Made by a program: the position numbers and the translations under genes. From Eledone cirrhosa (Eukaryota): a stretch of 64,000 bases of DNA. A model generated the notes under the pieces. It had not been told where the DNA came from. It searched no databases and saw only the letters and a list, made by a program, of their open reading frames with translations. Every line of letters begins with the position of its first letter. The first letter of the stretch is position 1. The stretch covers positions 20,770,001-20,834,000 of the forward strand of contig OZ024757.1 in the NCBI GenBank assembly GCA_964016885.1, in the 5' to 3' direction. Below, piece after piece: positions 9,898 through 50,210 of the stretch.

Positions 9898-9956
9898 ATA
9901 CTGCTATATATATTTCGGTGACAGCCATCATTGGCTGTGACCTCTTCAGGCAGTAT
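9898..9956 (-). ncRNA. Type I minimal hammerhead ribozyme motif, family C, within palindrome 9848-10197
   Basis: Minus strand atactgc CTGAAGA ggtcacagccaatgatggctgtcacc GAAA tatata TA gcagtat; the plus-strand partner at ~10090-10147 has a mutated core (CCGAAGA). Confidence 0.85.
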
Positions 9957-11169
9957 GAATTTGTGTGGGAAAGACAGGTACACATGTTGTTGAAGTGTGT
10001 TTTACTCCGTCAATACATCGATATGTCCAGCTCCTGGTTGTGCTGTTATTCTTCTGAGGAACTGGAATCATATGATTCCACACCAATTCAGACCCCCGAA
10101 GAGGTCACAGCCAATTATGGCTGTCACCGAAATATATATAGCAGTATATCTATAATTTATAATAAACGAAGCCAAATTTTACATATTTGACTTAATTTTT
10201 TTCACATTACTCCCGAGTAAACAACCCAACCTGCATACTTCGTCCAGTGCTCCAATCTGCATACTGAGGTGTCGGTAAACAACCAACATATACTCAAAAT
10301 ATATACATATATATATATATATAATATATATATATATATATATATATACATACAGTAAACTGATCATGTAGGTGTCATGACAAAAAGCACCCAGTCCACA
10401 TTGCAGAGTGGTCGTTTTGGGGCCACAATAAAAAGCACCCAGTTCACACTGTAAATGTGGTTGGCATTAACAAGGGCATCCAGCTATAGAAACCAAACCA
10501 GAAACAGTTGTGTCTGAGCAAGACTGTCATCTGATTTGTCTTGTCTCCCAATGAACAGTACACAAAAGGAAGAAAACATTGAGTAAGTGCCAAGGTTGGT
10601 GATGTAAAACTGTTGAACTACTGTGAAGATGCTATTTGAAGCTGTTTGTATTAGCACAGTGTAGACAATTCTAACCAAAGATATGGAGCTCTACAAAATC
10701 TGTGTGGATTGAGTGGTGGTGCTGGAGGTGTTGGTAGTGGTGGTGGTAGTGGTGTTGGTGGGGGTGTTAGTAGTGGTGTTGGTGGGGGTGTTAGTAGTGG
10801 TGTTGGTGGGGGTGTTAGTAGTGGTGTTGAAGGGGGTGTTTGTGGGGGTGTTGGTAGTGGTGGTGATAGTGGGATGTTGGTGTTGTTGTGTAGGGCTGTT
10901 GTGGGTGTTGATGGAAGGGTTGTTGGTGTTGTTGTTGATATTGTTGCTGGTTGTTGTGGTCATGGTGCTGGTGGTGTTGATAGTAGTGAAATTGCTCTTG
11001 GTGGAGTTGTTCATATTGGTGCTGGTATTGATGGCTATAATGGTATAGGTGCAGGTGATGGTGGTGATAATGGTGCAGGTGATGGTGGTCTCGGTGTTGA
11101 TGGTAGTGTTGCTGGTGATGTTGTTGGTTATAGATTTAAGCCTTAATCTAGACTTCACTAGGAGATTGT

Positions 11170-11375
11170 CTTTGCCTAAGTTTAGCTTTTTAACAAATCT
11201 AGATTTTTGCCTACATCTAGTTTTCTAACAAATCTAGATTTTTGCCTACATCTAGTTTTCTAACAAATCTAGATTTTTGCCTACATCTAGTTTTCTAACA
11301 AATCTAGATTTTTGCTTTTATCAAGACTGGTAATGAATCTAGATTTGACCTATATCTAGCCTTTTAACAAATCCA
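11170..11375. repeat. 35-bp minisatellite (tctagatttttgcctacatctagttttctaacaaa)
   Basis: Three exact copies plus degenerate flanking units. Confidence 0.85.
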
Positions 11376-12169
11376 GTTGTTCACTCAGCTCGATTCCAAC
11401 AATGTCAAGTAAAGAATTTTACATTTTTTTCCCATATCTATATTCTACAGTTTCACCACTTGCATACTGGGGTTACAAAGAAGGACATATAGAAATACAC
11501 TTGGAGCCAAAGATAAGGAAGAAAAGCCATGAAAGTTCTCAAACCAAATATGTCTGCCACTTAAACTAGAAGAGAAAGAAGAGGAGGAGTAAAGGAAAAA
11601 CAAGGGAGAGAATAAAAACCAGGGGAGACAAGCAAACAAAACCTTGATATTTTTAATGTTATTTATATCTTTGAATGTAAAATGATTGGATTGAAGGGGC
11701 CAGAGGGGAGGGGAGAAGTGTGTGTGTGTATGGGTGCATTTGTATATACATGCATGTGTTAAGGTATGTATGTGTGTGTGTGTGTATGAGTATATATATG
11801 TGTGTATTTGTGTGTTTGCCTGTATATTGTATATGTATGCGTGTGAATGGATGCACATGCCCACATGTGTGTGTACTTGTAAGTCTGCATGCTTGTGCTT
11901 GAATAAATGTCTGAATGGTGACGATGGTGGTGGTGGTTGGGCTAGTGGTGGTGGTGGTTGGGGTAGTGGTGGTTGTGGCTGAGGTGGTGGTGGTTGGGGT
12001 AGTGCTGGTTGTGGCTGAGGTGGTGGTGGTTTAGGGGCAATGATGGCTGTGCTGATTGTTGTAGTGATAGTAATGGTATAATGTTTGTGGTGGTGGCTAC
12101 TGGTGGCAATGGCAGTCTTGTAGTAGAGAGAGTTTGGGTGGTGGTAGTGCCTTTCATTCTCCAGTCAAA

Positions 12170-12600
12170 AGGGGTGGGGATTGGCAAAATTGGTAGAGCA
12201 TCAGAGATACTTTGGAGCCATTTACTCTTTTACCTGTTCCAACTGACAGGTTGGGGGCCATGCTGGGGCACCGCCATTAGTTGCAACTTCTATGTTCTGA
12301 GTTCAAATTATGCTGAGGTTAATCATCTTTGCTTTTCATCATCCAGGGACTAAGAAAATAAAGTACCAGGCATACACTGAAGTTGATATAATCAATAACA
12401 ACATTCTCTATGCCTAAATTGCTGGCCTTGAGCCTAATTTGTGCATTGGCAAAATTGGTAGAGCATAGGACAACATGGTTTGTGGCCAGAGTTCAAATCC
12501 TGCTGAAGTTAACTTTAACTTTTATCTTTCTGGGACTGAGAAAAGTACCAGTAAAATGCTGGTAAAATTGCTGGCCTTGTACCAAAATTTAGAAATAATT
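12170..12600 (+). mobile_element. Two degenerate family-2 SINE copies
   Basis: attggcaaaattggtagagcat heads, gagttcaaat B box, aaagtaccag, ctggccttg tails. Confidence 0.6.
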
Positions 12601-12621
12601 ATTACATATTTTTTCACAATT

Positions 12622-12912
12622 CATCATCATCATCATCACCGTTTTATGCCCGTTCTTCCACGCTAGCATGGGTTAGACGGGTTGTCCTGTTGTGGGCAGT
12701 GTCTGGTCGGCTGACCATGCCTTGCTCATACGGGAACTGATTTGGCTTGATTTCTACAGCTGGATGCCCTTCCTAACACCAACCTCATTTACAGTGAGTG
12801 CTGGGTGCTTTTTCGTGGCGCCTACACGTCCACTTTACAGTGTGGGCTGGGTGCTTTTTTCCCGTGGCACCTCCACGACCTCCTTGCGGTGGGGGGTGTG
12901 GGGGCATATTGT
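12622..12912 (-). mobile_element. RTE/SINE 3'-tail fragment
   Basis: Homologous to 6631-6871, with the same distal boundary (ggggcatattgt). Confidence 0.8.
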
Positions 12913-14169
12913 CTAATAGATATTTCCTCCAATCCCGGGATATGACCGCCATAAAAGAGCAATTGCTGCCAGATAAAAACTGAGGTAAGCTTGAAATACA
13001 AATAAAGTCTCCTATTCTAAGTAACAAAAAAAAAAAAAAATAAATAAAAAATAAATAAATAAATAAATAAAAATAAAAATAAAAATAAAAAACAAACAAA
13101 CAAAACAAAACAAACCCCAAAATACATTCAATTTATTTATTTTGCTTCTGTATTTATTTTATTTATTTTCATGTTTGTTTTTTATTTTTTTATTTTTTAG
13201 AATCTAAAAGTAAATTGTTCCTTCAATTTTGTTGTTATGGTGTACTTTAAACATTGCTGATAAAAATATTACTAAACTTCGATATATGTATACACACGCA
13301 CACACACACACGCACACACACACACATATATAATTAAATATTACATTGAAATGTATATGGTCTATATAAATGGCTTGGTGTTTTTTTAATGAATACTGAA
13401 CACAATTTTATGTGTATGGGAAGTGGATGGGGGGAGGGGGCTTGTGAGGAAATAGGTGTGTGTGTGAGAGAGTGTGAAAGAAAGAAAGAGAGAGAGAGTG
13501 TGAGTGGAAGAATGCGAGCGAGCGAGAGAGAGTGAAAGAGAGAGAAAGAGAGAGAGAGTGAAAGAATGAGAGCGAGAAAGAGAGAGAGTGAGTGAAAGAA
13601 TGAGAGCGAGAAAGAGAGAGAGAGAGTGAAAGAAAGAGAGCGAGAAAGAGAGAGAGAGAGAGTGAAAAAGAAAGAGAGAGAGAGTGCTCACAGAGGAATG
13701 AATTTTGTAAGTCAATTTTTATTTTTCAAATGGAATAATTCCAATTCAATTATATCACTCAGGTGCATGGGAAATGTATGAACATCACAGCATCTCAGTT
13801 ACATTCTCCTTCTAATCAGATATTTGCTATGAAATCAGAGTTGAATAGAAAATATTATAGAAATGTGTAAACAGTCAAAACTATTGATTTACAACAGTTC
13901 AATATGTCTGGTCTGAGTCTATTGGAAGAATAACTTGCTTAACATATTGGAGTAATAATAATTGCTTCTTATTTAGGCAGAAGACCATCAATGTTACGGG
14001 AGGGCGAAGCCGATGACATCGACCCCTCGTTCGTTACTGGTACTTTATTTTATCGACCCTGTAAGGTTAAAAGTCAAAGCTAACCTCGGCGGGATTTCAA
14101 CTCAGACCGTAAAGGGCAGCAATCCAGGCCATAGCAAGATTCCTGGGTCTCCTTTTACAATCTTCCAAC

Positions 14170-48936: not shown

Positions 48937-49487
48937 ATAATATATATATATATATATATATATATATACACACATTTTTACACACACACACATATACAGT
49001 TGTTTAACCCCAGGTATCAGGCCAATAAGACACTTCAGTTTTGGTCCTGCTATTTTTTTTCTCATTCCATTTTCTATTTTACAGAGATATACTATATTGA
49101 TAACTGAATAGCATGAGCTCAGCCAGTGGGCTGTAACTATTTAAAATACCGACATACTACTTTCTCAAGAATTGAGTACTTAGCTGAACATGGTCTTACT
49201 AGACTTAAATGGTAACTCCCAGTCTCTCTATCTATCTATAGTAGATATATATAGATGTATAGATTTTGAGTATATGTTTTAAGCTAACTCCAACAATAAC
49301 AACACTTAGAATGAGGAATGTTCTAACAACTGACCAATGAGAGGAGAAGAGGCCCTTTGACACTGAAATTCGTTTGTTTGAATTCATATGATTCCAGTTC
49401 CTCAGTGAAATAGCAACCCATATCAGAGTATTGACAAAATTATACACCTCAACAACATATGTACTTGTCTCTACCACACTAATTCGG

Positions 49488-49542
49488 ACTGCCTGAGGAG
49501 GTCACAGCCAAAGATGGCTGTCACTGAAATATATATAGCAGT
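49488..49542 (+). ncRNA. Hammerhead motif, family C
   Basis: actgc CTGAGGA ggtcacagccaaagatggctgtcact GAAA tatata TA gcagt; upstream sequence homologous to the reverse complement of 9957-10080. Confidence 0.85.
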
Positions 49543-49602
49543 AATAAACGAAGCTAAATTTTAAACATTTGACTTTTTATTTAACATTATATATATATAT
49601 AA

Positions 49603-49790
49603 TGGCGGTGGATTGGCAGTATCGGTAGAGGGTCGGACGCCATGCTTTCCAGCATAGTTACGTCCCTTTCTGATCCGAGTTCAAATCCCACCGAGGTTGA
49701 CTTTGCCTTTCATCCTTACGGGGTCGATAAAATAAAGTACCAGTAATGAACTAGGTAATTGCTGGCCTTGTGCCTAAAGTAGAAACAATT
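49603..49790 (+). mobile_element. Family-2 SINE (Nin-domain-like)
   Basis: A box, B box and central conserved domain; flanked by (TA)n. Confidence 0.85.
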
Positions 49791-49939
49791 ATATATATAT
49801 ATATATAGATGTATATATATATATGTATATTAGAGAGTTGAGTCCAATGGTTAAATACTTGCCATTCCAACAGCAAACTCCAAACTATATATATATACGA
49901 TATATTAACAAATGGGAACTATATTTATAAAACCATATT

Positions 49940-50004
49940 TATTTCATTATACATATTTCAAGGACACCAAGTTAAATTATGGTGTGCTTTCATCAGATAA
50001 AATA
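49940..50004 (-). ncRNA. Hammerhead motif, family A (left arm of palindrome 49896-50254)
   Basis: Reverse complement of 50146-50210. Confidence 0.85.
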
Positions 50005-50145
50005 TAATATAGATCAGTTTTATAAATAAATATTGCCATACCCTTAAAGAATGCGACCTTTGACTATCCGAGAGCTTCCAACAGAAATGGTCGCATTCTT
50101 TAAGGGTATGTCAATATTTATTTATAAAACTATATATCTATATTA

Positions 50146-50210
50146 TATTTTATCTGATGAAAGCACACCATAATTTAACTTGGTGTCCTTGAAATATGTA
50201 TAATGAAATA
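50146..50210 (+). ncRNA. Hammerhead motif, family A (right arm)
   Basis: tattttat CTGATGA aagcacacca..tggtgtcctt GAAA tatgta TA atgaaata. Confidence 0.85.

What the first reader, a model, noticed from the sequence alone, without database searches (positions are those of the whole stretch)
9898..50210. C-pyrimidine mismatch conserved at the 4th position of stem II across unrelated hammerhead families
Seen: agg-C..C-cct (23810, 27635, 44669), aag-C..C-ctt (4701, 50161), gag-C..C-ctt (41520), ggt-C..C-acc/atc/act (family C), aaa-C..T-ttt (family D) and t-gt-C..C-ac (355-bp array). Flanking pairs change in a compensatory way while the mismatch is kept. Established: natural hammerheads use a loop or bulge about 4 bp up stem II for tertiary contacts with stem I. 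Inference: this is a selected tertiary-contact or protein-recognition site that may define a hammerhead subclass.
Basis: partly seen in the sequence, partly recalled or inferred. Interest (0 to 1): 0.8.

Follow-up and report, generated by a model that had tools for sequence, protein, structure and literature searches.

The report
Unpaired cytosine in retrotransposon hammerhead ribozymes
About 100,000 copies of one lineage of Penelope-like jumping genes in this animal genome carry a hammerhead self-cutting RNA motif with an unpaired cytosine at a fixed spot in one stem, likely kept by selection, but the families are relatives rather than unrelated and the cytosine's job is untested.

Summary
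The mismatch is real. 14 dispersed hammerhead motifs in the window have C·C (12) or C·U (2) at stem II position 4. In copies not selected on that site, position 4 is paired in 0 of 52, against 42-51 of 52 at eight other positions.

Three corrections:
(1) The families are not unrelated. Those I could link to a protein are pseudo-LTRs of Hydra-clade Penelope-like retrotransposons (41-56% protein identity between main families), forming one clade (89/93), so probably one origin.
(2) The 355-bp array is a false example: 56 of 20,751 copies of its family have C·C.
(3) The conserved unit is the unpaired 5' C. Its partner is C, U or A (three amplified C·A subfamilies); no amplified G partner was seen.

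Flanking pairs covary, the 5' C never changed (0 versus about 2.8 changes per site, P about 0.06), and sister lineages pair it with G. Selection is likely. No conserved stem I partner was found, so a tertiary contact is unsupported; a role in protein-assisted folding or cleavage is my best, untested, reading. Hammerheads in these elements are known, and this scan noted them in other genomes; I found no report of this feature.

The parts
4686..4751 (+). Type I hammerhead motif, family A/B; C4704·C4728
9897..9957 (-). Hammerhead motif, family C; C9939·C9920; inverted twin of the copy at 10096
10088..10148 (+). Family C twin with one core substitution; C10106·C10125
23795..23860 (+). Hammerhead motif, family A; C23813·C23837
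24832..24902 (+). Hammerhead motif, family D; C24850·U24879; an internally deleted inverted twin lies at 24761-24737 (-)
27429..27494 (-). Hammerhead motif, family A; C27476·C27452; inverted twin of 27628
27620..27685 (+). Hammerhead motif, family A; C27638·C27662
33541..33602 (+). Hammerhead motif, family C2; C33559·C33579
41505..41565 (+). Hammerhead motif, family E (relative of A/B); C41523·C41542
42681..44412 (+). 355-bp tandem array with five hammerhead motifs (cores 42897, 43251, 43608, 44000, 44360) of a different family (extra base after A9). C·C here is a rare variant of a normally paired C-G; not part of the conserved feature
44654..44718 (+). Hammerhead motif, family A; C44672·C44695
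48763..48817 (+). Family D motif, C48781·U48810; stem III and the 3' arm are interrupted by another repeat
49485..49545 (+). Hammerhead motif, family C; C49503·C49522
49940..50004 (-). Hammerhead motif, family B; C49986·C49963; inverted twin of 50154
50146..50210 (+). Hammerhead motif, family B; C50164·C50187

Best explanation
These are hammerhead motifs at the ends of 5'-truncated copies of Hydra-clade Penelope-like retrotransposons, and the unpaired C at stem II position 4 is likely an inherited, selected feature of one lineage that would help the element's own protein grip or refold a weak, dimer-dependent ribozyme. Shown: the motif, its copy number, its link to Hydra-type RT/GIY-YIG reading frames, and the constancy of the 5' C against a changing partner and changing flanking pairs. 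Inferred: single origin by loss of an ancestral G partner, purifying selection, dimer cleavage through the palindromic stem III, and the protein-contact or folding role. Predicted: the mismatch costs about 5-7 kcal/mol and leaves the three core-proximal pairs marginal, so the active fold would need help.
For: Position 4 is paired in 0 of 52 bystander copies against 42-51 of 52 at positions 1-3 and 5-9. Genome counts: C·Y 99,576 (control 11), C·R 3,964 (60), R·Y 2,520 (46). A full-length element (L209) has hammerhead, 740-aa ORF, 3' UTR, hammerhead and an inverted 5' copy. A same-strand upstream Hydra-type ORF piece was found for families A, B, E, D, D3, F, F-short, J, C, C2 and P. The unpaired-C families are one side of a branch at 89/93; sister families X395 and N393 have C-G at position 4. 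The 5' C has 0 changes, its partner 4, other sites a mean of 2.8. The two sides differ, which suggests the base itself matters and not just weakness. None of 26 published Hydra-clade rows has an internal mismatch there; 16 have C-G (read by eye). Precedent: an anole Poseidon hammerhead cleaves only when the element's protein is added (PMC11167929), and minimal PLE hammerheads are slow alone (PMC4209133). In-silico pairing stabilises the hairpin by 4.8-6.7 kcal/mol in 15 of 15 representatives.
Against: No activity, binding or expression data. The invariance statistic is weak (Poisson P about 0.06) and there is only one origin, so nothing can be correlated. The lack of a G partner rests on four partner changes and is not significant alone. 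With fewer taxa the tree placed family C apart from the other unpaired-C families: beside the paired sisters (80/68; one clade not rejected, p-AU 0.325) or with unlabelled rows. The AU test gave p=0.036, but it forced out the family-P piece that I had left unlabelled. Families K, L and M could not be tied to an ORF. Family Q has C, A and G at the 5' site in its three copies (two were found by a pattern demanding a purine), so it is unresolved. The 5' C is also present, paired, in sister lineages, so its constancy may predate and not depend on unpairing. The protein-assisted precedent is from another clade, and there cleavage was not needed for insertion in vitro.
Confidence: 0.4

Rival explanations
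1. The unpaired C makes an RNA tertiary contact with stem I (or with the partner ribozyme in the dimer) that speeds cleavage at low magnesium.
For: Natural hammerheads use helix I-helix II contacts (PMC6155905 passages). Position 4 is near where canonical loop 2 begins. U1.7, recalled as the canonical contact base, is present in 12 of 15 representatives.
Against: No invariant base or bulge in the first six stem I pairs or in 20-40 nt of either arm. The bulged base in family A is G or A, and other families lack it. U1.7 is often paired and mostly shared within one subclade in AU-rich sequence. The canonical loop follows 4 pairs, here 3. PLE minimal hammerheads are described as lacking tertiary contacts.
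Confidence: 0.2
2. The mismatch is a hinge or weak point with no base-specific contact: it lets two long helices pack, or keeps the ribozyme off until dimer formation.
For: The partner tolerates C, U and A. Proximal stem II pair probability is under 0.35 in 9 of 15 representatives in monomer folds.
Against: Reciprocal mismatches (U·C, A·C) would weaken the helix too but appear only as scattered single copies; the position never shifts.
Confidence: 0.2
3. The mismatch is a tolerated relic: it arose once in an ancestor and was copied along, with no benefit.
For: One origin suffices. Other Hydra-clade and Neptune-like families in the same genome amplify without it. P for zero changes is only about 0.06.
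Against: Proteins of the main families are only 41-56% identical and every flanking pair has turned over with compensation, yet single-step repair was not seen amplified. This holds even in the C·A subfamily F-short, where a CpG transition makes a perfect pair (one such single copy, L069).
Confidence: 0.15
4. The C is constrained at DNA or coding level (promoter initiator, splice signal or codon) rather than by RNA structure.
For: PLE pseudo-LTRs carry promoters. The C is followed by a purine in all 15 representatives that have it. In the anole element the ORF starts in stem II.
Against: The frame through the core is closed by stops in 12 of 16 representatives, stem lengths differ in frame, and the ORF of L209 starts about 230 nt downstream. 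A DNA constraint on C would not stop the partner from becoming G.
Confidence: 0.05

Closest known systems
Hammerheads of Hydra-clade Penelope-like elements (Craig et al. 2021, PMC8557442, File S2)
   Same: Type I hammerhead in the 3' pseudo-LTR of an RT + C-terminal GIY-YIG element inserted in (TA)n; symmetric stem II whose first position may be U·U; C at 5' position 4 is common (16 of 26 rows, as C-G).
   Different: Published rows have a fully paired stem II, a 3-4 bp stem III and a GUH triplet. Here position 4 is C·C/U/A, stem II is mostly longer, stem III is a 2-bp palindromic stub and the triplet is AUA.
Minimal hammerheads of metazoan Penelope-like elements (Cervera & De la Pena 2014, PMC4209133)
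   Same: Long helix II, weak palindromic helix III implying dimer cleavage, many sequence families per genome with compensatory changes, inverted pairs 100-700 bp apart, U-rich/AU-rich flanks. The 355-bp array motif fits their consensus (extra base after A9, G10.1-C11.1).
   Different: The dispersed motifs lack the unpaired base after A9 and the fixed G10.1-C11.1 pair. Their 56-motif alignment shows a 1x1 mismatch at pair 4 in at least two single examples (U·U, C·A) but no conserved one.
Poseidon PAc hammerhead of green anole (Frangieh et al. 2024, PMC11167929)
   Same: PLE pseudo-LTR hammerhead; precedent for a ribozyme that needs the element's protein.
   Different: Different clade; its ORF starts in stem II; no stem II mismatch is described in the parts read.
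Canonical type I hammerheads of Schistosoma/newt retrozymes (Rfam hammerhead clan)
   Same: Same catalytic core and type I topology.
   Different: 4-bp helix II plus loop contacting a helix I bulge; not present here. No Rfam hammerhead model reached its threshold in the window.

Membership tests
Type I hammerhead ribozyme | Core CUGANGA, GAAA, UH with three helices, helix I open | tested here: met
   Core invariant in 16 of 16 representatives; 88.8% of cells paired, 0 of 500 shuffles as high
Type I hammerhead ribozyme | Match to an Rfam hammerhead model at gathering score | tested here: not met
   only a tRNA-like hit; no hammerhead among the 150 of 409 rows shown
Type I hammerhead ribozyme | Self-cleavage at the predicted site | not testable with these tools
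   No biochemical data; no RNA run available
Canonical (tertiary-stabilised) type I hammerhead | 4-bp helix II with loop contacting a conserved helix I bulge | tested here: not met
   Helix II runs 8 or more positions; no conserved stem I bulge or base
Minimal PLE hammerhead (Cervera 2014 consensus) | Unpaired base between A9 and G10.1, G10.1-C11.1 pair | tested here: not met
   Dispersed families: first position pairs in 48 of 52. Met only by the array's family
Minimal PLE hammerhead (Cervera 2014 consensus) | Palindromic weak helix III | tested here: met
   Hexamer self-complementary in 179 of 189 contexts; the search pattern already favoured this
Hydra-clade Penelope-like element | Single ORF with RT and C-terminal GIY-YIG; RWK-like and DKT motifs | tested here: met
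   L209 ORF has an RWR and a DKT motif, YRDD and a C-terminal nuclease region (motifs read by eye); Pfam gave no hit for it
Hydra-clade Penelope-like element | CxCX5C linker, no CCHH motif, CxxC and CxH around conserved E and N | tested here: met
   Seen in L209, L174, L201, L204 translations
Hydra-clade Penelope-like element | Insertion in (TA)n, pseudo-LTRs, inverted 5' copies | tested here: met
   (TA)n within 51-174 nt downstream in 13 of 14 window copies; L209 layout
Hydra-clade Penelope-like element | Phylogenetic placement with the published Hydra sequences | not tested
   Published proteins were not used; trees used database homologues at 30-42% identity

The most novel reading that the evidence does not exclude
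The unpaired C is the handle by which this retrotransposon lineage's own protein recognises and switches on its hammerhead: a natural protein-gated ribozyme marked by a single invariant nucleotide, with about 100,000 genomic variants as a ready-made mutational scan.
Probability: 0.25. Interest if true: 0.65.

Novelty: new variant of a known kind. Interest (0 to 1): 0.42.

Why it matters
Why Penelope-like elements keep hammerheads that barely cut in vitro is an open question. Here one non-core nucleotide stays fixed and unpaired while everything around it turns over, in a young, intact element with natural C·C, C·U, C·A and C-G variants. That gives a precise handle for testing whether such ribozymes are tuned by their protein, by a new tertiary contact, or not at all. 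It is a lineage-specific refinement of a known association, not a new ribozyme class.

Tried and rejected
Rfam scans found no hammerhead. No Hydra-type ORF lies in the window itself (no window hit); window copies are short 3' ends. The first PLE protein followed up (L019 piece) belongs to a Neptune-like family with another motif, not to these hammerheads. Viral contig scan: 21 candidates, none related. Sequencing runs: no RNA holder listed. Laying DNA runs showed the element in a second organism label, with one 61-nt contig piece covering both C positions unchanged; this says nothing on cleavage. A coding constraint was rejected. A shared alternative pairing partner for the C was rejected: best partners differ between families and the 5' C is at least 85% unpaired in 10 of 15 folds. 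ORF links for families K, L and M were sought in fetched upstream stretches and not found. Trees with fewer taxa were unresolved for family C. Lunse et al. 2017, a catalogue of PLE hammerhead variants, was not held and may bear on novelty. Earlier scan notes: none on this genome or sequence.
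Full report
OBSERVATION. Fourteen dispersed copies have an unpaired C four bases after A9, opposite C (12) or U (2). Five more motifs lie in the 355-bp array at 42681-44412. A strict filter counts 12 motifs in the window against a mean of 0.04 in 50 shuffles. Rfam has no hammerhead hit at gathering score. The dispersed motifs are type I: AU-rich stem I, stem II of 8 or more positions, a 2-bp stem III with a palindromic loop (self-complementary in 179 of 189 contexts, a shape the pattern favoured) and an AUA triplet. 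Several occur as inverted twins and end in (TA)n.

THE ARRAY IS A FALSE EXAMPLE. Its motif has an extra base after A9 and the mismatch at pair 3. The same family has 20,751 genome matches; 99 of the first 100 listed have C-G at that site and one has C·A. Only 56 (0.27%) have C·C, five of them this array. A copy of this family lies about 320 nt behind a Neptune-like nuclease domain (L048). Two further copies of the array's short subtype have C·C and one is paired (L152), so a tiny subgroup is possible, but this is not conservation.

GENOME-WIDE PICTURE. The genome is 3.0 Gb. With the stem III tail fixed, matches number 99,576 for C·Y, 3,964 for C·R and 2,520 for R·Y (reverse-pattern controls 11, 60, 46). 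A 5' U was not counted with this tail; an earlier pattern gave 5,248 non-C matches, mostly single-base variants of the same families. Among the first 100 C·R rows I count by eye 50 of one C·A subfamily (F-short), several of two other C·A subfamilies (D3, P) and 11 in-register C-G copies spread over six families. So C-G repair is about 0.4% of copies, close to the 0.27% reverse change in the array's family, as expected from mutation after insertion. Only the first 100 rows of each search were visible, so a paired subfamily elsewhere is not excluded. In 52 copies caught in flanks without selection on position 4, that position is paired 0 times, against 42-51 times at the other eight (189 contexts in all, 137 set aside as selected or fetched on purpose). 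The conserved thing is thus an unpaired 5' C with partner C, U or A.

THE FAMILIES ARE RELATIVES. Eight window copies are one DNA family. Between inverted twins 2.5-3.7 kb apart lie RT and nuclease frames, and L209 is a complete element: inverted end, hammerhead, 740-aa ORF, 1.4-kb 3' UTR, hammerhead, (TA)n. Its motifs match the Hydra clade as described by Craig et al. (PMC8557442; passages, section 11 and supplement parts 1-2 of 59 read). 150 genome hits at 98-100% identity show a young family. Same-strand upstream pieces of this protein type were found for families A, B, E, D, D3, F, F-short, J, C, C2 and P; none for K, L or M. Identities between main families are 41-56% over long overlaps, 34-45% for the short J and P pieces. 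In the fullest tree (21 rows, LG+G4) the nine labelled unpaired-C rows plus the family-P piece are one side of a branch (89/93; one change in 90% of bootstrap trees). F-short nests with F, and D3 with D. The AU test there (p 0.036) forced out the P piece that I had left unlabelled, so it does not test the clade. Smaller trees left family C unresolved (p-AU 0.325 for one clade). Sister families X395 and N393 have C-G at position 4 with a longer stem III, and the more distant family G is paired too. The nearest named homologues are from Argonauta hians; their hammerheads could not be read.

IS IT SELECTED? On 16 representatives, 7 of 8 stem II pairs change on both sides and position 4 is unpaired in 15. 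The exception, Q, was picked by a pattern demanding a purine, and its three copies show C, A and G. On the protein-guided tree of 12 families the 5' C has 0 changes, its partner 4 (once to U, three times to A), and the other 14 sites 2.8 on average; Poisson P(0) is 0.06. That is suggestive, not decisive. The stronger argument is qualitative: helix pairing was restored repeatedly next door, yet no one-step repair was seen amplified. In Craig's table of 26 Hydra rows none has an internal mismatch at position 4, 25 are paired (16 as C-G) and one has already reached its loop (read by eye; their search favoured paired stems but found motifs in nearly all families). The simplest history is an ancestral C-G whose G was lost once, with the C then held unpaired.

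MECHANISM. Closing the pair in silico adds 4.8-6.7 kcal/mol in all 15 representatives; with the mismatch the core-proximal pairs are marginal in many folds, and no shared alternative partner for the C appears. Stem I shows no invariant base or bulge, so the tertiary-contact idea has no positive support beyond position and a common U1.7 (12 of 15; its role is recalled, not from a call). A coding role is excluded. Minimal PLE hammerheads cleave poorly alone and as dimers (PMC4209133; main text parts 1-2 of 4 and supplement parts 1-2 of 3 read). An anole PLE hammerhead cleaves only with the element's protein, though cleavage was not needed for insertion in vitro (PMC11167929; parts 1-2 of 4 read). 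I therefore favour a protein-contact or protein-assisted folding role (0.4) over an RNA tertiary contact (0.2), a non-specific hinge (0.2), a tolerated relic (0.15) or a DNA-level signal (0.05). All are untested.

NOVELTY. Hammerheads in PLE ends, including the Hydra clade and an octopus Hydra family, are published. Nine paper searches listed no report of a conserved stem II C mismatch. Also seen: passages of PMC7229834, PMC6765202 and PMC6155905 and part 1 of 5 of bioRxiv 10.64898/2026.07.22.740005. Earlier scan notes describe PLE hammerheads in other genomes but not this feature. Verdict: a real, lineage-specific new variant of a known element; interest 0.42.

Noticed in passing
L121-L140 pseudo-LTRs (e.g. 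G000:C1:323800700-323807700): An abundant Neptune-like PLE (ORF about 875 aa) carries a hammerhead-shaped motif with two core changes (U4 to A, A6 to U), with stems I-III intact, in most of the 20 loci printed. A possible natural core variant.
   Followed up: no
L395, L235, L124, L139, L203, L061, L098, L207, L394: The sister Hydra family X395 has a U4-to-C core change in all 8 copies listed, with C-G at position 4.
   Followed up: partly
window 42681-44412: The 355-bp tandem array with one hammerhead per unit looks like a retrozyme-type repeat; about 190 nt of each unit derive from a PLE end (81-85% to L152, L183, L046). One further copy of its exact motif lies on contig C1221.
   Followed up: partly
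window 23803-23870 and family A/B/E copies: The 3' tail just past stem I is complementary (up to 9 nt) to the distal 5' strand and loop of stem II in family A; it is weaker in B and E. A possible alternative fold limited to that subclade.
   Followed up: no
window 54584-57856 (-): A 1,091-aa open frame of a LINE-type element with endonuclease and RT motifs, nearly intact.
   Followed up: no
window 21478-21535 (-) and related copies at 41549-41913, 7302-7647, 50613-50979, 58567-58905: tRNA-derived SINE-like repeat family.
   Followed up: no
whole genome G000: Hammerhead motifs of just two pattern classes exceed 120,000 copies, similar in scale to the axolotl count in PMC7229834.
   Followed up: partly
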